This document shows positions 3,898 through 29,058 of a stretch of DNA of 36,280 nt, piece after piece (the first letter of the stretch is position 1; every line of letters begins with the position of its first letter). The stretch comes from a virus, in IMG/VR virus record IMGVR_UViG_3300017816_000002; one strand, 5' to 3'. Below the pieces are notes generated by a model. That model was not told where the DNA came from. It ran no database searches and worked only from the letters and a program-made list of their open reading frames with translations. The translations under genes were made by a program, and so were the position numbers.

Positions 3898-4731
3898 ATG
3901 ACCGACGAAACCGAAACCCTTCCGGGTAGCGGCGAGGCGAGTGCGCCCGCTGCGGACACCGCAGTCCCCAAGAATGACGCCGAGGCCGCCGCGCAGGATG
4001 CGCAGAAGGCCGAGGAGGAAAAGCGCGAATCCAAGCCGGACGAGGCTCAGGCCAAGCGCAAGAACCGCACAACCGAGTACATCGAACGGCTGAAAGGCGA
4101 GGCTGCGCGGGCGCGAGAGCTTGAGCGAAAGCTCGCTGAGCTGGAGGCGCGCCTGCCCAAGCCGGAGGGGCCGAAGCCCCCGGACCCCAAGGACTTCTAC
4201 GAAGACCCGATTGGATTCACCAAGGCCCAGGCAGAGTTCCAGGTAATGGAGGCTCGCCGCAAGTGGGAGGAGGAGCAGCGGGCAGCCGCAAAGCAGGCCG
4301 AGGAACAGAGGCTGTGGCAGTCCTACCAGGAGCGCGCCTTGAAGTTCGCGGCGGAACACGAAGATTTCGAGGAGGTGGTCAATTCCGTCCGCTTCCCTCT
4401 GGCGCCTGAAGTTCAGGCCGCGATTGCCGCCCATGAGTCCGGGCCTGCAATCGCCTACCACATTGGACTCAACGCACATGATGCGTTCCTTCTCGCCCAG
4501 ACCAAGCCGGAGCTGGCCCAGTTTGCGGTTGAGCTGATCGCATCGCGCATGAAGGCCGCGCCCGAAGTGCCCTCGCCTCCCGCAGCCACGGCGGAAACAC
4601 CCAAACCCATCAGCCAAGCACCTGCTCCGCCGCCGCGAGTCGGCGGTCGCTCCCCTACCGAGGTCCCGAAGGAAAAGATGACCGACGAGGAATGGTACCG
4701 GGCCGAGCAGGAACGCAGGCGCAAGCGATAA
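3898..4731 (+). CDS. Scaffolding protein
   Basis: 277 aa, rich in Ala/Glu/Lys/Arg and coiled-coil-like (ERKLAELEARL, EEEQRAAAKQAEEQR). Lies between the portal and coat genes. Confidence 0.7.
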   Translation: MTDETETLPGSGEASAPAADTAVPKNDAEAAAQDAQKAEEEKRESKPDEAQAKRKNRTTEYIERLKGEAARARELERKLAELEARLPKPEGPKPPDPKDFYEDPIGFTKAQAEFQVMEARRKWEEEQRAAAKQAEEQRLWQSYQERALKFAAEHEDFEEVVNSVRFPLAPEVQAAIAAHESGPAIAYHIGLNAHDAFLLAQTKPELAQFAVELIASRMKAAPEVPSPPAATAETPKPISQAPAPPPRVGGRSPTEVPKEKMTDEEWYRAEQERRRKR

Positions 4732-4743
4732 AGGAGAATAGCC

Positions 4744-5952
4744 ATGGCGAACGTAGGCCAGGCACTTACCCATCAGATGATCGCCCGCGAGGCGGCCAAG
4801 ATCCTGCTGGAAAACAACAACGTTGCCAACCACATCAACATCGAGCGCCAGAAGGAGTTCGGTGAGGAGGTCAACGGCTACAAGAAGGGCGATACCGTCA
4901 AGGTCGCGGTGCCGCCGGTCCCGGTGACTTACTCGGGCTCGTCCTTCGCTGGCGGCGGCTCCGCCCCGGCCGCCAAGGAGTCGTACGTTGACCTGACGGT
5001 CGATCAGCAGGAGCACGTTCCGCTGACCTTCACCGCCAAGGAGAAGAAGCTGGAGCTGACCGAGTTCAGCAAGCGCTTCCTCCGCCCGGCGATGACCTCG
5101 CTGGCGAGCAAGATCAACGCGGTGTTCCTCCAGGCGATGTACGAGCAGACCCCGAATGTGGTCGGCGCCTGGGGCACCACTCCGGGTTCGCGCGCCGTGT
5201 GGCGCAATGCGGCGTCCACGCTGGACCGCTTCCTGGCGCCGGAGGACGACCGGTACGCCCACATTTCGGTCGATGCGAGCGATGCGCTGGCGGAAACCAA
5301 CTCCAGCCTGTTCCACACCGCCGATGAAATCCGTGGGGAGTTCAGCAAGAACGCCATCGGCACCTTCGCGGGCCTGGAGTTCTACAAGCAGCTGTCCCTG
5401 CCGGTTCACGCCAATGGTGCCGGTGCTGGCTACCTGATCAATGGCGCCTCGCAGACCGGCTCGACCCTGACCGTTGACACCGGCAGTGGTGCCATCACCA
5501 AGGGCTCGATCATCACCATCGCTGGCGTGAACGCGGTCCACCCGATCACGGGCGCTGACCTTGGCATCCCGGCCAAGTTCGTGGTGACTGCAAATGTCAC
5601 CTCGGGTGCCACCTCGATCCCGATCTACCCGGCGCTGATCCCGAACACCACCAGTGTGCGCGGCAACGTCACCGCTTCGCCGGGCGACAATGCGGCCATC
5701 ACCGTGTTCGGCACTGCGTCGCAGTCCAAGGTGCAGGATCTGGTGTTCCACCGGGATGCTTTCGCCGCCGCGTTCGCGCCGCTGCCGGTGCTGGCGTCGT
5801 GCGAGGGCTACACCGCCTCGATCAAGGGCATCAGTGTCCGTGTGATGACCTTCGGCGATGGCAAGAGCGACGAGGAGCACACCCGTATCGATGTGCTGTT
5901 CGCCAAGCCGACCGCCGTGCGTCCGTACCACTCGGTGCGCGTCACTGAGTAA
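4744..5952 (+). CDS. Major capsid (coat) protein, P22 gp5-like
   Basis: 402 aa with an AAGGAG SD upstream and very high GC3. Position is after the scaffold gene, and a strong GC hairpin follows. Confidence 0.88.
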   Translation: MANVGQALTHQMIAREAAKILLENNNVANHINIERQKEFGEEVNGYKKGDTVKVAVPPVPVTYSGSSFAGGGSAPAAKESYVDLTVDQQEHVPLTFTAKEKKLELTEFSKRFLRPAMTSLASKINAVFLQAMYEQTPNVVGAWGTTPGSRAVWRNAASTLDRFLAPEDDRYAHISVDASDALAETNSSLFHTADEIRGEFSKNAIGTFAGLEFYKQLSLPVHANGAGAGYLINGASQTGSTLTVDTGSGAITKGSIITIAGVNAVHPITGADLGIPAKFVVTANVTSGATSIPIYPALIPNTTSVRGNVTASPGDNAAITVFGTASQSKVQDLVFHRDAFAAAFAPLPVLASCEGYTASIKGISVRVMTFGDGKSDEEHTRIDVLFAKPTAVRPYHSVRVTE

Positions 5953-26224: not shown

Positions 26225-26253
26225 ACAATAGCAGCGCTAATTATCCGCGTCAA
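26225..26253 (-). promoter_or_regulatory. PL early-left promoter
   Basis: Minus strand: -35 TTGACG (26248-26253), a 17-nt spacer, then -10 TATTGT (26225-26230). It has the same -10 hexamer and the same operator geometry as PR. Confidence 0.7.
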
Positions 26254-26264
26254 CAGCAAAGCTA
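26229..26264. promoter_or_regulatory. OL operators (two TAGC-N3-GCTA-type sites, 25-bp centre spacing)
   Basis: TAGCAGCGCTA (26229-26239) overlaps the PL -10 and spacer. CAGCAAAGCTA (26254-26264) abuts the -35. The 15-mer CAGCAAAGCTATTTA is shared exactly with OR (28782-28796). Confidence 0.7.
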
Positions 26265-26317
26265 TTTATTTGTCGAGCAGCCGACGAACGGTAGGGCGAA
26301 GTTCTACATAGCCGGGC

Positions 26318-26343
26318 AAAGAAAAACCCCGCCGGGGCGGGGT
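26318..26343 (-). terminator. Intrinsic terminator of the repressor/cargo operon (tIMM analogue)
   Basis: Stem CCCCGC/GCGGGG (26327-26342) followed on the minus strand by TTTTTCTTT. Lies between the DUF3800 stop (26483) and PL. Confidence 0.8.
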
Positions 26344-26482
26344 CTCTTGAGGCGCCCTTAGTCCGTGGGATAACCCTGTGGGCAAGTGGTTGATTACTGC
26401 CTTGACTTTTGATAGCTTTGCGGCCAGCCCCCGGCAGTCGAAGCCCCTGCCCAGAGTAGGGGAAGCGGCAAAGGCCGTGACC

Positions 26483-27235
26483 TCAAGGTCTAGACTGCCG
26501 GGCGCGCCCTCCTCTAGGGCCCAGCTGCATGTTCCACATGCTCAGGCGCTTTTCTCCGTAGTGGGAACTTCCGCCCAGCCGCCTCACTCCGATCTTCCCC
26601 GCCACGTGAGCCGCCAAGGCGCTCTTTGCGGCGCTCGCCTCCGGCCGGGTGTCGTGGGCGTTCTTGTGCCACGCGATCGCGCCGGTCAGCAGATCCGCCA
26701 CCTGGATCAATCGGGATCCCTTTGAGTTGCGATGGGCGACGCGGGTGAAGGGCCGGTGCTGGGGGGTCCCTAGATCCTTCGCCGCCCGTCTATTGAGGCA
26801 GGTCTGCAGCTCTAGCAGGTCCCGCGCGGTGTTCCTCGCGTCCAGGTCGACCACGATCTTTTCCAGCCGCACGAACGGCTTGCCGGCTCTGTGGTACAGG
26901 ATCTGGAACAGTAACTTGTTGAAGCCAAGTTCGCTGTCACCCTCGTTGTAGGCCCGGTGATCGAGCAGGCTGGTATCGACAATGAGGGCATGGGCCTCGC
27001 TGCCCAGCGGGACCATCTCGTCGAAGTAGAAGTCGACGGCAGCCCTGTACGCGGCTAACTTCCCGCCGCTGACCTTGGTCCACTTGAGCTCACTGTTCTG
27101 GATCCCGTGGTCGGCCAGGCGGGCGTCGAGATCGTGTTCAAACTGCCGCACCATCTGGGCCGGGCAGCTAACGAAGCCGAGCACCATGTACCGGTGCGCG
27201 TTCTGGCTGCTTTCGTCGAGGAAGACGTGCCGCAC
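26483..27235 (-). CDS. DUF3800-family protein (250 aa)
   Basis: The N-terminal MRHVFLDES motif and the C-terminal LIQVADLLTGAI motif are the two signature motifs of DUF3800. Uses more A/T-ending codons (tta, aga, cta, ata, tca) than neighbouring genes. Confidence 0.82.
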   Translation of the reverse strand: MRHVFLDESSQNAHRYMVLGFVSCPAQMVRQFEHDLDARLADHGIQNSELKWTKVSGGKLAAYRAAVDFYFDEMVPLGSEAHALIVDTSLLDHRAYNEGDSELGFNKLLFQILYHRAGKPFVRLEKIVVDLDARNTARDLLELQTCLNRRAAKDLGTPQHRPFTRVAHRNSKGSRLIQVADLLTGAIAWHKNAHDTRPEASAAKSALAAHVAGKIGVRRLGGSSHYGEKRLSMWNMQLGPRGGRARQSRP

Positions 27236-27385
27236 CTACTTCACCCAGCCGCCCGTCCACCGCACGCGCCCCACGACCGTGAGCCCGTCGGCCAGCGGCC
27301 GCGGATCCTTCCAGTTGTGGTCTCCGTCGGGGTTGTCCGACACGAACACCACCTGGCCTACCGTTCGTCGGCTGCTGCGGGGAAA

Positions 27386-27420
27386 CCTAGGCATTGCCTA
27401 TTGACCGCATCCTAGGCATT
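27386..27420. repeat. Two CCTAGGCATT direct repeats (25-bp period) upstream of the DUF3800 gene
   Basis: Exact 10-mers at 27386-27395 and 27411-27420, each containing the palindrome CCTAGG. They lie in the 186-nt spacer between the SHOCT gene stop and the DUF3800 start. Confidence 0.6.
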
Positions 27421-27421
27421 T

Positions 27422-27922
27422 CTACCGCTGCAGCAGCTTCTGCTTTTCTGCCTCGAACTCGGCGTCCGTCAGTAGACCGCGCCGGCGCAGGTCATCCAGC
27501 TTCGTCAGCTCCGTATAGAGGTCCGGATGCGGCTGCGCCTGAGCTTGCTCAGGAATGCCGGACGCACCGGCGCTTACATGCACATGCACGTCAGGCTCGG
27601 GGGCGATGGCGGCTGAGGTCGCCTCGCCCGGACGGGCAAGGCGGAACTGGTACTCCGCGGCGGGGAAGCGACCTGGCGCCGCCTCGGTGTAGGCCATGTG
27701 CACCGGCACCGCGACCATGCCGCGCTCGGCGGCGTAGTCGTTCGCGGCTTGGATGGCCTTCTTCTTGGTGGTGCTGGGCTGCCCGAAAGCACCGGCGTGG
27801 TTCTTTACTATCACCATGAACACGTCCGGAGATACCTGCAGAACCTCTGGCTTCCCGGCATGGGCTGTAGGCGCAGCGGTTGCGATAGCAGCCCCGAGTA
27901 CAAGCATCAATCGAGTCTTCAT
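27422..27922 (-). CDS. Secreted protein with an N-terminal signal peptide and a C-terminal SHOCT domain (166 aa)
   Basis: MKTRLMLVLGAAIATAAPTAHA|GK looks like a type I signal peptide. C-terminal LYTELTKLDDLRRRGLLTDAEFEAEKQKLLQR is the SHOCT motif. GGAGAAGG SD, 9 nt after the orf134 stop. Confidence 0.8.
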   Translation of the reverse strand: MKTRLMLVLGAAIATAAPTAHAGKPEVLQVSPDVFMVIVKNHAGAFGQPSTTKKKAIQAANDYAAERGMVAVPVHMAYTEAAPGRFPAAEYQFRLARPGEATSAAIAPEPDVHVHVSAGASGIPEQAQAQPHPDLYTELTKLDDLRRRGLLTDAEFEAEKQKLLQR

Positions 27923-27931
27923 CGCCTTCTC

Positions 27932-28336
27932 CTAATGCGCAGGCAAACAATCCGGCAGGCTTGCGCCCGTCTCGGCGGCATCGACGTACCCGTTCATCCG
28001 GTCCAGAAGATCGTCCAACTGCGGGTCGGTCAGGTCCGAGAGGTAGGGCACGCCTTTGGTCATCAGGAAGTGGGTGATAGCGATCTGCCAGCCGTACGTG
28101 TTAGCGATGACCATGATCATGTGCATCTTCCTGGCGCGCTCCGATACGTCGAGCGGCCGCATGGTGGTCCAGTCGGGAAGGCTGGGCGGTGGCGGCTCTG
28201 GCGCCGGCTGCGCCTCAGGCTCGCTTCCGCTGCCGACCAGCCGCAAATCCCGCGGCATCCCCAGTTTCCGCTTCGCGCGCTGCGCCAGAAGCGCCGCCAC
28301 GCGGTCGACCTGCTGCCCGAACTCCTCGCTCCCCAT
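27932..28336 (-). CDS. orf134, hypothetical protein cotranscribed with the repressor
   Basis: ATG 28336 is preceded by GGAGG (6-nt spacing). All of the first ~14 codons end in G/C. Pro-rich linker (EPEAQPAPEPPPPSLP) then a helical C-terminal domain. Overlaps the repressor 3' end by 122 nt. Confidence 0.72.
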   Translation of the reverse strand: MGSEEFGQQVDRVAALLAQRAKRKLGMPRDLRLVGSGSEPEAQPAPEPPPPSLPDWTTMRPLDVSERARKMHMIMVIANTYGWQIAITHFLMTKGVPYLSDLTDPQLDDLLDRMNGYVDAAETGASLPDCLPAH

Positions 28337-28745
28337 CCATCGCCTCCGTCTGTTCCAGGATCACCAAACGCAGCAGTTCGGCGAACAGTTCGGGGTCCGC
28401 TTCGATGTCGATCGGCTTCCCCACGACCTGCCTGGTCGATTGCCGCATCAGCTGCGCCGCGCGTGAAATGGTGGAGGCGGTCAGTCGCGCGAGGTGCGAC
28501 GGGCCGAAGTGATCTTGGATCCGGCGGTACTCGAGGCTGATCTCGGCGGGGGAGATGCCCAGGGCGGACGCGATAGCCTCGGCCCGGTCCCACGGCACCG
28601 GACGGTGCCCACTGGCGTACTGGCTCACCAGGCCCGGAGTCACGTCGAGCGCATCGGCCAGTTGCGCCTTGGTGGCGCCCGCTTTCGCGATGGCGACCGT
28701 GAGGCGGAGAGCTTCCTCGGTCTGGGGGTTGGCTGGCCTAGGCAT
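28215..28745 (-). CDS. CI-like prophage repressor (XRE HTH N-terminus, no S24 peptidase domain seen)
   Basis: AKAGATKAQLADALDVTPGLVSQYASGHRPVPWDRAEAIASALGISPAEI is the HTH. Divergent from the cro-like gene across the operator region. No SD. The -10-like TAGCGT ends 6 nt before the ATG, suggesting a leaderless mRNA. The last ~40 codons have poor GC3. Confidence 0.8.
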   Translation of the reverse strand: MPRPANPQTEEALRLTVAIAKAGATKAQLADALDVTPGLVSQYASGHRPVPWDRAEAIASALGISPAEISLEYRRIQDHFGPSHLARLTASTISRAAQLMRQSTRQVVGKPIDIEADPELFAELLRLVILEQTEAMDGERGVRAAGRPRGGASGAAREAETGDAAGFAAGRQRKRA

Positions 28746-28746
28746 G

Positions 28747-28817
28747 TAGCAACGCTATCCCAGCGCCGTCCGTCGGGCGACCAGCAAAGCTATTTACAAG
28801 AGTAGATAGCCAAGCTA
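28747..28817. promoter_or_regulatory. OR operators (three TAGC-N3-GCTA-type sites)
   Basis: TAGCAACGCTA (28747-28757), CAGCAAAGCTA (28782-28792) and TAGCCAAGCTA (28807-28817). The last overlaps the PR spacer and -10. The first overlaps the putative PRM -10. Confidence 0.72.
28752..28780 (-). promoter_or_regulatory. Putative weak maintenance promoter (PRM analogue), leaderless repressor mRNA
   Basis: Minus strand: -10 TAGCGT (28752-28757) ends 6 nt before ATG 28745. The -35 is poor (TCGCCC, 28775-28780). Confidence 0.4.
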
Positions 28818-28821
28818 TTGT
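28793..28821 (+). promoter_or_regulatory. PR early-right promoter, leaderless cro-like mRNA
   Basis: -35 TTTACA (28793-28798), a 17-nt spacer, then -10 TATTGT (28816-28821). Six nt later comes ATG 28828, with no SD. Confidence 0.68.
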
Positions 28822-28827
28822 GCGCCC

Positions 28828-29058
28828 ATGAGCGCACCCATCCTGCAACCTCTGGTAGACAAGGTCGGCTCCCAGGCCGAGTTCGCCCGCCGCATAGGAG
28901 CCGCCCCCGCGCTGGTCTGGCAGTGGCTGGATGCACGCCGGCCGGTGAGCCCGAAGTACGCACGGGCCATTGAAGCGGAGTTCGGCGTTTCCAGGCACGA
29001 CCTCCGCCCCGACGTGTTCGGCCCGGCGCCCGCGCAGAAGGCCCGCCGCCGTGCCTGA
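28828..29058 (+). CDS. Cro-like repressor (YdaS/Cro-type HTH, 76 aa)
   Basis: GSQAEFARRIGAAPALVWQWLDARRPVSPKYARAIEAEFG is the HTH. Divergent from the CI-like gene. Confidence 0.8.
   Translation: MSAPILQPLVDKVGSQAEFARRIGAAPALVWQWLDARRPVSPKYARAIEAEFGVSRHDLRPDVFGPAPAQKARRRA

What the first reader, a model, noticed from the sequence alone, without database searches (positions are those of the whole stretch)
26318..28745. Repressor-cotranscribed three-gene cargo in the lambda rexAB slot: orf134, secreted SHOCT protein, DUF3800 protein
SEEN: Every gene between PL (26225-26253) and PR (28793-28821) is on the minus strand. The order is the CI-like repressor (28745->28215) and then orf134 (28336->27932), whose GGAGG SD lies inside the repressor 3' end. 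Next is a signal-peptide plus SHOCT protein (27922->27422, starting 9 nt after the orf134 stop). A 186-nt spacer with two CCTAGGCATT repeats follows, then a DUF3800 protein (27235->26483). The clearest U-tract intrinsic terminator I found in the window (26318-26343) comes next, immediately before PL. ESTABLISHED: In lambda this same slot (cI-rexA-rexB-terminator, between PRM and PL) carries a prophage-expressed anti-phage system. Immunity-region cargo in other temperate phages is typically superinfection exclusion or defence. INFERENCE: These three genes are expressed in the lysogen together with the repressor. They are the best candidate here for an undescribed prophage-encoded defence or exclusion system. 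I do not know of a described system with this gene combination.
Basis: partly seen in the sequence, partly recalled or inferred. Interest (0 to 1): 0.82.

Follow-up and report, generated by a model that had tools for sequence, protein, structure and literature searches.

The report
Prophage nuclease paired with antisense RNA
The supposed three-gene defence operon is a patchwork of unrelated pieces, but one piece, an RNase H-like DUF3800 nuclease gene, always travels with a small, highly conserved, uncatalogued structured RNA encoded on the opposite strand at its 3' end, in the place that a partner protein (RlfB) holds in phage P1.

Summary
The interpretation, one new three-gene system, fails: orf134, the SHOCT protein and DUF3800 never co-occur in about 100 related loci.

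orf134 is a conserved partner of this HTH-only repressor and overlaps its 3' end. It is backbone, not cargo. The SHOCT protein is an independently mobile moron. The "186-nt spacer" is the 3' relic of a classical S24-type cI whose stop codon abuts the DUF3800 start, so DUF3800 once sat directly behind a cI.

It folds as a four-way junction. It is 75-90% identical in nucleotides where the proteins are 50-60% identical. It is found antisense at the DUF3800 stop in every locus whose DUF3800 is 29-76% identical and whose 3' flank is present. In a model-fitted alignment 22 of 27 pairs covary. It matches no Rfam family.

DUF3800 matches PADLOC candidate PDC-M04A, which I show is P1 RlfA; PDC-M04B is RlfB. 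RlfB and the RNA occupy the same 3' slot and are mutually exclusive.

Best reading: a two-part nuclease-plus-RNA module and a candidate defence system. Its function is untested.

The parts
28793..28821 (+). PR-like promoter (TTTACA, 17 nt, TATTGT). Operator-like 13-mers at 28782-28794 and 28807-28819 overlap it.
28828..29058 (+). Cro-like gene (YdaS/Cro HTH), divergent from the repressor
   Evidence: YdaS_toxin 3e-15
28215..28745 (-). HTH-only CI-like repressor (176 aa). Its last ~40 codons overlap orf134 in another frame.
27932..28336 (-). orf134, a conserved partner of this repressor type (223 homologues, same slot in other prophages). It has an N-terminal helix, a linker and a C-terminal three-helix bundle. 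Function unknown. Backbone, not cargo.
27422..27922 (-). Periplasmic (AHA|G signal peptide) SHOCT-domain protein. It is an independent moron, elsewhere chromosomal or located in the late region of other P22-like prophages.
27386..27419 (-). Two copies of ATGCCTAGG (27419-27411 and 27394-27386). A third copy is the repressor start (28745-28737). Possible recombination joints.
   Evidence: 3 found, 0.16 expected
27236..27364 (-). Relic of the last ~42 codons of a classical HTH+Peptidase_S24 CI/LexA-type repressor. It lies inside 'orf52' (27394->27236). Its stop codon TAG directly abuts the DUF3800 GTG start.
26483..27235 (-). DUF3800 protein (250 aa), an RNase HII/H2-like fold with D7-E8, D132 and Q178xxD181. 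It belongs to the PADLOC PDC-M04A / P1 RlfA family.
26390..26418 (+). Predicted sigma-70 promoter of the small RNA (-35 TTGATT 26390-26395, 17 nt, -10 TAGCTT 26413-26418). The position is conserved in unrelated flanks of 14 loci. An operator-like sequence (26411-26423) overlaps the -10.
26426..26506 (+). Small structured RNA, convergent with and antisense to the DUF3800 3' end. It is a four-way junction: P1 of 12 bp closing three hairpins P2-P4 (paired core 26427-26505). It overlaps the last 23 nt of the DUF3800 CDS.
26318..26343 (-). Intrinsic terminator-like hairpin plus U-tract that ends minus-strand transcription before PL. The DUF3800 3' UTR would therefore be complementary to the whole small RNA.
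26225..26266 (-). PL-like promoter (TTGACG, 17 nt, TATTGT) with the operator-like 13-mer at 26254-26266

Best explanation
The interval between PR and PL is a mosaic of four independent pieces.
1. The immunity backbone: an HTH-only repressor and its conserved overlapping partner orf134.
2. A SHOCT-domain periplasmic protein acquired as a moron.
3. The 3' stump of an older S24-type cI gene.
4. A self-contained two-part module: the DUF3800 RNase H2-like nuclease gene plus a ~80-nt four-way-junction RNA, transcribed from its own promoter on the opposite strand and ending at the DUF3800 stop codon.

Shown here:
- The RNA and this DUF3800 clade are inseparable, in a fixed geometry.
- The RNA strand, fold, promoter and boundaries are conserved with covariation.
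- In the related P1 rlfA/rlfB (PADLOC PDC-M04) clade the same 3' position holds the RlfB protein gene instead. RNA and RlfB never coincide.
- The module sits in prophage, mobile-element and defence-island contexts. In an ancestor of this phage it lay directly behind cI.

Inferred:
- The RNA is the functional partner of the nuclease. It stands in for RlfB, and for the RT-msDNA of type VII retrons. It binds the nuclease and holds it inactive, or otherwise controls it.
- In the lysogen the nuclease is made from the repressor transcript. Infection, or loss of the RNA, releases nuclease activity on RNA or RNA-DNA hybrids, which gives abortive infection or exclusion.

My confidence by step: mosaic about 0.9; conserved protein-RNA module about 0.9; RNA acts as regulator or partner of the nuclease about 0.6; anti-phage defence role about 0.4.
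For: No co-occurrence of the three genes:
- No co-occurrence of orf134, SHOCT and DUF3800 in related loci.
- orf134 lies in the same repressor-adjacent, overlapping arrangement in other prophages.
- SHOCT homologues are chromosomal or sit in late regions.
- The 'spacer' is an S24 relic.

The RNA:
- The 3' flank is 75-90% identical in nucleotides in all 17 close loci, against 50-60% protein identity.
- Strand asymmetry: the gene strand gives -30.4 kcal/mol with 13 broken C.A/A.C cells. The opposite strand gives -46.8 kcal/mol with 2 broken cells, the rest G.U.
- Controls: 99.5% of cells paired, 0/500 shuffles reach this, slid partners give 35-50%.
- Covariance-model hits outside the seed lie at the same place and strand where the protein is 29-41% identical: L100 E 2e-6, L098, L003, L001, L006, L004/L005.
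- There are no other hits with E<1 in 761 kb.
- Each divergent RNA folds alone into the same junction, z -4.8 to -7.1.
- With the divergent members, 22/27 pairs carry double changes and 0/500 shuffles reach any of the five measures. RNAalifold agrees.
- A promoter is conserved in position.
- The RNA 3' end lies within -13..+31 nt of the stop codon, and low-GC members have a U-tract after P1.

The protein:
- Catalytic motif conserved. AlphaFold2 pLDDT 94. Best PDB matches are RNase HII 1eke and human RNase H2A 3puf.
- PDC-M04A at 1.5e-34. P1 RlfA = PDC-M04A and RlfB = PDC-M04B.
- RlfB lies directly 3' of DUF3800 in 37 of 72 viral loci and in none of the RNA-bearing loci. P1 has no such RNA.
- Defence genes are neighbours elsewhere.

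Literature: DUF3800 genes associate with at least 11 unrelated ncRNA motifs (PMC5737381). DUF3800 is the effector of type VII retrons (PMC7736814). It accompanies Cas12a2/a3 and Cas13 loci.
Against: - Nothing here shows that the RNA is transcribed, that it binds the protein, that the nuclease is toxic, or that any phage is blocked.
- PDC-M04 is only a computational candidate.
- In P1 the rlfAB pair sits behind a C1-controlled operator and is annotated as possibly linked to lytic replication. That does not fit a lysogen-expressed defence.
- The alignment that includes the divergent RNAs is fitted to the model. Within the close clade only 5 pairs show double changes.
- The RNA is by geometry complementary to the DUF3800 3' UTR, so a purely antisense role cannot be excluded.
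- An operator-like sequence on the RNA promoter, if real, would mean the RNA is repressed in the lysogen. That complicates a simple antitoxin model.
- I could not read the supplementary alignments of Weinberg et al. 2017, so identity with one of their motifs that is missing from Rfam is not excluded.
Confidence: 0.55

Rival explanations
1. One reading: orf134, the SHOCT protein and DUF3800 act together as one new repressor-cotranscribed three-gene defence or exclusion system.
For: The genes are adjacent and co-oriented, with short gaps and no terminator-like site until 26338-26326. The slot is equivalent to lambda rexAB. GC is lower than in the flanks.
Against: The three genes never co-occur in about 100 related loci. 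Each has its own independent distribution. A relic of another gene separates SHOCT from DUF3800, so their adjacency is a recombination accident.
Confidence: 0.04
2. The RNA is only a cis-antisense regulator, like a type I antitoxin or a plasmid copy-control RNA. It pairs with the complementary 3' UTR and the end of the DUF3800 mRNA, triggers its decay or causes convergent transcription interference, and never contacts the protein.
For: The convergent overlap with the stop codon is invariant. In the window the mRNA must run through the RNA gene to reach its terminator. Structured antisense RNAs are well known (established knowledge: CopA, Sok, RNAII of par).
Against: Loops and junctions are conserved as strongly as stems, and the RNA is more conserved than the protein. 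The same architecture is kept through complete sequence turnover. The overlap with the CDS is 0-31 nt and sometimes negative. Other DUF3800-associated RNAs lie on either side and either strand (PMC5737381). In the sister clade a protein, RlfB, fills the same slot.
Confidence: 0.2
3. The DUF3800 module is not a defence system. It is a replication or nucleic-acid-processing accessory of mobile elements, for example an RNase H-like enzyme that trims R-loops or primers, with the RNA as substrate or cofactor.
For: The fold is RNase H2-like. P1 rlfA/rlfB follow repL/oriL, lie behind a C1 operator, and are annotated 'possibly associated with lytic replication'.
Against: The P1 annotation is positional only. 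Members lie in chromosomal islands beside a type IIG restriction-modification gene, SoFic and an HNH effector. There is literature linkage to retrons and to collateral-RNase CRISPR effectors. Here the gene is co-oriented with the repressor, not with the replication operon.
Confidence: 0.15
4. The RNA is a guide or scaffold for an RNA-directed nuclease, in the manner of the omega RNAs of TnpB/IscB, which also start at the 3' end of an RNase H-fold nuclease gene.
For: A nuclease of the RNase H superfamily has a structured RNA at its 3' end. There is a historical precedent: Weinberg's HEARO motif turned out to be the IscB omega RNA (my recollection).
Against: There is no variable guide-like segment. 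Both RNA ends are locked in P1, and the only variable part is the 4-8-nt P4 loop. The RNA is on the opposite strand. The protein is small (250 aa) and RNase H2-like rather than RuvC-like.
Confidence: 0.04
5. The conserved 3' element acts as DNA, for example as a recombination or attachment site or a protein-binding palindrome, and not as RNA.
For: It contains an invariant GGCGCC/GGGCGCCC palindrome. The module is mobile.
Against: The mismatches are strand-specific: all are G.U on one strand and C.A on the other. There are compensatory changes in four helices, a promoter at a fixed distance, and a U-tract after P1 in low-GC members. No second copy flanks the gene.
Confidence: 0.02

Closest known systems
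DUF3800-associated structured RNA motifs (DUF3800-I to -XI, drum, skipping-rope; Weinberg et al. 2017, PMC5737381)
   Same: A conserved structured ncRNA is tightly linked to a DUF3800 gene. Some of the published motifs end in intrinsic terminators. Function is unknown in both cases.
   Different: No Rfam family matches this RNA, even at E<=10; Rfam does hold DUF3800-I and -IX. Here the geometry is fixed: always convergent, ending at the stop codon. I could not compare with motifs that may be absent from Rfam.
Phage P1 rlfA-rlfB / P7 rapA, which is PADLOC candidate system PDC-M04
   Same: The window protein matches the PDC-M04A model built around RlfA. In both, the partner is encoded directly at the 3' end of the DUF3800 gene, and both are phage-borne.
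   Different: The partner here is an antisense RNA, not the 154-aa RlfB protein. The two are mutually exclusive. Identity to RlfA is only 26%. P1 rlfAB is behind a C1 operator, whereas here the gene is co-oriented with the repressor.
Type VII retrons (RT + msr/msd ncRNA + DUF3800 effector; Mestre et al. 2020, PMC7736814)
   Same: A DUF3800 RNase H2-like protein is coupled to a structured non-coding nucleic acid. In retrons the nucleic acid holds the effector in check until infection.
   Different: There is no reverse transcriptase in or near the module. The retron proteins lack the Q of the QxxD motif, which is present here.
Lambda cI-rexA-rexB (repressor-cotranscribed exclusion genes)
   Same: Position between the repressor and PL, closed by a terminator. 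The S24-cI relic shows an ancestral cI->DUF3800 coupling.
   Different: There is no homology to RexA/RexB. The content is a nuclease plus an RNA, not a sensor plus an ion channel. Cotranscription is not demonstrated.
RNA-antitoxin toxin-antitoxin systems (type III ToxIN; type I pairs with 3'-overlapping antisense RNAs such as txpA/RatA)
   Same: A nuclease or toxic protein gene is paired with a small RNA. Both are carried on mobile elements and have abortive-infection potential. The convergent 3' overlap resembles some type I pairs.
   Different: There are no tandem RNA repeats upstream of the gene (type III). The protein is a 250-aa RNase H-like enzyme, not a short membrane peptide (type I). 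Toxicity is untested.

Membership tests
Pfam DUF3800 (PF12686) | HMM match above the gathering score | tested here: met
   48.4 bits against a cut-off of 21, full-length match 1-149/149
Pfam DUF3800 (PF12686) | N-terminal DE motif and C-terminal QxxD motif (as described in PMC7736814) | tested here: met
   D7-E8 nearly invariant, D132 and D181 invariant, Q178 nearly invariant in 42 sequences
Pfam DUF3800 (PF12686) | RNase H / RNase H2-like fold | tested here: met
   AlphaFold2 pLDDT 94. Foldseek top hits are RNase HII 1eke and RNase H2A 3puf, probability 0.99-1.0, TM 0.41-0.47.
PADLOC candidate PDC-M04 (P1 rlfAB type) | Component A (RlfA-like DUF3800 protein) | tested here: met
   PDC-M04A at 1.5e-34, profile positions 6-228 of 232. 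P1 RlfA hits the same model at 1e-95.
PADLOC candidate PDC-M04 (P1 rlfAB type) | Component B (RlfB-like protein) adjacent to A | tested here: not met
   No PDC-M04B hit among 14 neighbouring window ORFs. tblastn of RlfB finds nothing in the window or in any RNA-bearing locus.
DUF3800-associated RNA motifs of Weinberg et al. 2017 | A conserved structured RNA next to a DUF3800 gene | tested here: met
DUF3800-associated RNA motifs of Weinberg et al. 2017 | Match to one of the published motif models | tested here: not met
   No Rfam 15 hit at gathering score or at E<=10 for the window, nor at E<=1 for divergent members. Motifs not deposited in Rfam could not be checked.
Type VII retron | Reverse transcriptase gene and msr/msd adjacent to DUF3800 | tested here: not met
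   No RT-like ORF or PADLOC retron hit among the neighbours. The flanking genes are the SHOCT gene, the cI relic and small PL-operon ORFs.
Lambda RexAB-type repressor-cotranscribed exclusion module | Located between the repressor and PL on the repressor strand, with a terminator before PL | tested here: met
   The ancestral direct cI->DUF3800 junction is shown by the relic.
Lambda RexAB-type repressor-cotranscribed exclusion module | Transcribed with the repressor in the lysogen and excludes other phages | not testable with these tools
   Needs RNA-seq of a lysogen and phage challenge.
Type III toxin-antitoxin (ToxIN-like) | Tandem repeats of the antitoxin RNA upstream of an endoribonuclease toxin that processes them | tested here: not met
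   A single-copy RNA lies downstream and antisense. No other copy exists in the window.

The most novel reading that the evidence does not exclude
DUF3800 nucleases are a widespread effector whose activity is set by interchangeable partners: the RlfB protein, a retron RT-msDNA, CRISPR effectors, or, as here, a dedicated cloverleaf-shaped small RNA. In this clade the RNA directly binds and gates the RNase H2-like enzyme as an RNA antitoxin, pseudo-substrate or sensor. That would make a new RNA-controlled abortive-infection system. In this phage it would be wired into the lysis-lysogeny switch through cotranscription with the repressor and an operator-like site on the RNA promoter. It would also give the first functional explanation for the dozen orphan 'DUF3800 RNA motifs' known since 2017.
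Probability: 0.3. Interest if true: 0.8.

Novelty: new variant of a known kind. Interest (0 to 1): 0.6.

Why it matters
DUF3800 proteins recur in prophages, in P1, in type VII retrons and beside Cas12a2/a3 and Cas13. They have been known since 2017 to keep company with many unrelated structured RNAs. No function has been shown for the protein or for any of the RNAs.

This locus offers a compact test case of under 1.1 kb. The RNA strand, ends, promoter and fold are defined. There is a natural comparison in the RlfB protein, which occupies the same slot in the P1 clade. The genetic setting, behind the repressor of a temperate P22-like phage, predicts when the module is expressed. That makes the open question of what the DUF3800-associated RNAs do directly testable.

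The result also shows that adjacency in an immunity-region slot is a poor guide to what forms a system.

Tried and rejected
- DNA similarity of the 3.5-kb region, and of the RNA alone, to deposited phages and plasmids: no match.
- The RNA core pattern in IMG/VR: no match.
- The genome-collection scan gave only one locus, after a first attempt failed for lack of a conserved stretch. The metagenome scan gave eight.
- Rfam at gathering score and at permissive thresholds, on the window and on divergent loci: nothing relevant.
- tRNA-likeness: ARAGORN finds no tRNA or tmRNA in the window. The RNA shares only the four-way topology with tRNA.
- orf134 function: no Pfam or PADLOC hit, only a weak PHROG hit. 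AlphaFold2 model of pLDDT 78 with no significant PDB match.
- A profile search of DUF3800 against PDB sequences: nothing. Only the fold comparison worked.
- Upstream flanks of DUF3800 are not conserved between loci. I therefore rejected my first idea, that the 186-nt upstream 'spacer' was the DUF3800-associated RNA.
- orf52 as a real small gene: rejected. It is a gene stump.
- PDC-M04B among the neighbours of the window and of six other loci: none.
- Literature searches for PDC-M04, PF12686, the DUF3800-I/drum/skipping-rope names and RNA-antitoxin plus RNase H: no mechanistic study of DUF3800. The 2026 CASK preprint names a DUF3800 protein (Csx32) but assigns it no activity.
- The supplementary files of Weinberg 2017 are not held.

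Full report
OBSERVATION

Their family assignments hold: the repressor has HTH_31/HTH_3, the 166-aa protein has a C-terminal SHOCT domain (8.8e-8), and the 250-aa protein is DUF3800 (2e-12). The Shine-Dalgarno GGAGG before orf134 and the 9-nt gap before the SHOCT gene are visible in the sequence.

The consensus scan finds exactly two promoter-like sites in 4 kb (0.3 expected). They are PL at 26253-26225 (-) and PR at 28793-28821 (+). The only minus-strand terminator-like site is at 26338-26326. An operator-like 13-mer, AATAGCTTTGCTG, occurs exactly at both promoters.

The window is a whole 36,280-nt contig (P0170). It is a temperate P22-like phage, with P22 portal and coat proteins, a terminase and a YqaJ exonuclease and a tyrosine integrase. 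The cargo is 63-65% GC against 70-73% in the flanks. The anatomy is therefore real, with two corrections given below.

THE THREE GENES ARE NOT ONE SYSTEM

I collected about 100 related loci: 72 viral contigs, one genome locus, eight metagenome loci and 24 places found by exact-protein look-up.
- tblastn of orf134 and of the SHOCT protein finds nothing in any locus that carries a DUF3800 homologue. The converse searches also find nothing.
- DUF3800 relatives at 48-76% identity are stand-alone genes in varied mobile-element or island settings: next to AlpA, a tape-measure gene, an integrase, Fic or a terminase.

orf134 has 223 homologues. In other prophages it sits in the same place, next to the divergent Cro-like gene. 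There an HTH repressor ORF, missed by the gene callers, overlaps its first ~40 codons, just as in the window. GC3 shows that orf134's frame is the coding one across the overlap. orf134 is therefore a conserved partner of this repressor type. Its model is an N-terminal helix, a linker and a confident three-helix bundle, with no structural match.

The SHOCT protein has an AHA|G signal peptide and 125 homologues. In Xanthomonas sacchari it is an ordinary chromosomal gene. In other P22-like prophages it is a lone opposite-strand gene among the tail genes. It is an independent moron.

THE 'SPACER' IS A GENE STUMP

The 186 nt upstream of DUF3800 have GC3 of 0.90-0.97 in the frame of a 52-codon ORF. 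Residues 11-52 of that ORF match the last 42 residues of HTH+Peptidase_S24 repressors 214-246 aa long, at up to 79% identity. Its stop codon directly abuts the DUF3800 start (TAG|GTG).

An ancestor therefore had a classical cI followed immediately by DUF3800, which is exactly the rexAB geometry. The present repressor, orf134 and the SHOCT gene replaced most of that cI. They may mark the recombination joints.

A MISSED RNA GENE

The upstream flanks of DUF3800 are not conserved between loci. The 85-100 nt beginning at the stop codon are 75-90% identical in all 17 close loci, although the proteins are only 50-60% identical. The boundaries are sharp.

Folding the alignment on the gene's strand gives 24 pairs at -30.4 kcal/mol with 13 broken cells, all C.A or A.C. 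The opposite strand gives 27 pairs at -46.8 kcal/mol with 2 broken cells, and every other deviation is G.U. That asymmetry identifies an RNA read from the window + strand. It forms a four-way junction: P1 of 12 bp closing hairpins P2 (7 bp), P3 (4 bp) and P4 (4 bp with a variable loop). The paired core is 26427-26505.

On this structure 99.5% of cells pair. None of 500 shuffles reaches that figure or the observed covariation score, and sliding the partners by 1-3 columns drops pairing to 35-50%.

A -35 close to TTGAC and a -10 of the form TAnnnT end 7-8 nt before P1 in essentially all 14 non-redundant loci, within otherwise unrelated sequence. In the window this is TTGATT, 17 nt, TAGCTT at 26390-26418.

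A covariance model found further copies where the protein is only 29-41% identical: L100 (E 2e-6), L098, L003, L001, L006 and, weakly, L004/L005. Each is antisense and touches the stop codon. With the second model these, plus the window, were the only hits with E<1 in 761 kb.
- Each divergent RNA folds on its own into the same junction, z -4.8 to -7.1.
- In the combined alignment 22 of 27 pairs carry double changes, and all five measures beat all 500 shuffles. RNAalifold agrees. This alignment is fitted to the model, which is a caveat.
- The RNA's 3' end lies within -13 to +31 nt of the stop codon in 20 loci. In low-GC members P1 is followed by a U-tract, so P1 serves as the RNA's own terminator.

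No Rfam family matches the RNA at any threshold. ARAGORN finds no tRNA in the window.

THE PROTEIN AND ITS KNOWN RELATIVES

The family keeps D7-E8, D132 and Q178xxD181. The AlphaFold2 model (pLDDT 94) is closest to RNase HII 1eke and human RNase H2A 3puf. These are the templates reported for the retron type VII DUF3800 protein.

The protein matches PADLOC PDC-M04A at 1.5e-34. A tblastn search of deposited phages led to P1 RlfA and P7 RapA at 26% identity. PADLOC scores RlfA as PDC-M04A (1e-95) and the adjacent RlfB as PDC-M04B (1e-51). PDC-M04 is therefore the rlfAB pair.

RlfB homologues begin at the DUF3800 stop codon, on the same strand, in 37 of the 72 viral loci. None occurs in the window or in any RNA-bearing locus, and P1 lacks the RNA. 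The 3' partner slot holds either RlfB or the RNA.

Neighbours of the RNA-bearing module elsewhere include a type IIG restriction-modification gene, SoFic and an HNH CBASS-type effector.

HOW IT MOST LIKELY WORKS

Shown: a fixed, co-inherited pair consisting of an RNase H2-like nuclease gene and a structured small RNA with its own promoter. It sits in mobile and defence-island contexts. Here it lies behind the repressor with no intervening terminator.

Inferred: the RNA is the nuclease's partner. It would be functionally equivalent to RlfB, and analogous to the RT-msDNA that restrains effectors in retrons. It would bind and gate the enzyme. Release on infection would give abortive infection or exclusion.

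The main rival is a purely cis-antisense role. The conservation of loops and junctions, the minimal overlap with the CDS and the protein partner in the sister clade all argue against it. A replication-accessory role, suggested by the P1 annotation, remains possible.

An operator-like sequence (11 of 13 positions) lies exactly on the RNA's -10. If it is real, the repressor would silence the RNA in the lysogen and release it on induction. That would switch the nuclease off during the phage's own lytic growth. This is speculative.

VERDICT

The three-gene interpretation is not supported. What is there is a new variant of a known but unexplained kind: a DUF3800 (RlfA / PDC-M04A family) nuclease whose partner is an uncatalogued antisense four-way-junction RNA. 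It extends the DUF3800-RNA association of Weinberg et al. 2017. Function remains untested.

Noticed in passing
window 28215-28336 (-); L090 about 4580-5120; L092 about 4590-5130: The HTH-only repressor ORF runs about 40-45 codons into the 5' end of orf134 in another frame. The same overlap is kept in phages whose repressors are only ~44% identical. Gene callers missed the repressor in those loci, leaving 480-500 nt uncalled.
   Followed up: partly
L092-L094 4598-4807, compared with protein P0294: The N-terminal HTH of an S24-type repressor (P0294) is 56% identical to the HTH of an orf134-type repressor. DNA-binding modules are therefore exchanged between the two architectures, and orf134 may stand in for the S24 C-terminal domain.
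   Followed up: no
window 26411-26423 (+): GATAGCTTTGCGG matches 11 of 13 positions of the PL/PR operator-like sequence and sits exactly on the predicted -10 of the small-RNA promoter. Close relatives have TAAGAT-type -10 elements there instead. There are 4 hits in the window against 0.2 expected.
   Followed up: partly
window 28737-28745, 27411-27419, 27386-27394 (-): ATGCCTAGG occurs three times (0.16 expected): at the repressor start codon, 3 nt after the SHOCT stop, and at the start of the cI-relic ORF. These may be recombination joints or duplicated leaderless starts.
   Followed up: partly
L102 5001-5480; L103 3261-3740; L104 2957-3436: A 50%-identical SHOCT protein sits as a lone opposite-strand gene among tail and ejection genes of other P22-like prophages. 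It is followed by a small ORF of 55-61 aa.
   Followed up: no
L098 1107-4750: A DUF3800 gene overlaps by 4 nt the end of a 965-aa MmeI-type (type IIG) restriction-modification gene, and carries the antisense RNA at its own 3' end.
   Followed up: partly
L105 (phage P1 NC_005856) 1312-1328: P1 rlfA-rlfB lie behind an annotated C1-controlled operator (Orlf). The P1 DUF3800 pair is therefore repressed in the lysogen, the opposite of what is expected for the window's repressor-co-oriented copy.
   Followed up: no
L080 3659-3750 (-) and 33-104 (+); L004 8775-8847 (-): Rfam finds sRNA-Xcc1 (61.8 bits) and a tRNA on the small contig that carries one DUF3800-RNA module. It also finds a tRNA near the end of a viral contig, possibly an attachment site.
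   Followed up: no
window 26505-26494 and the homologous positions in other loci: The conserved C-terminal G-A-R of many DUF3800 proteins is encoded by GGCGCCCGG, which is the complement of the RNA's P1 3' strand. Protein and RNA therefore constrain each other there. The invariant GGGCGCCC is also a palindrome.
   Followed up: no
viral loci L007-L010, L012, L014, L040-L042, L044-L046, L051, L053-L055, L058, L060-L063, L065-L071: About 28 distant DUF3800 loci have neither RlfB nor this RNA at the 3' end, and the subset of them scanned gave no Rfam match. They may carry other partners that are still unrecognised.
   Followed up: no
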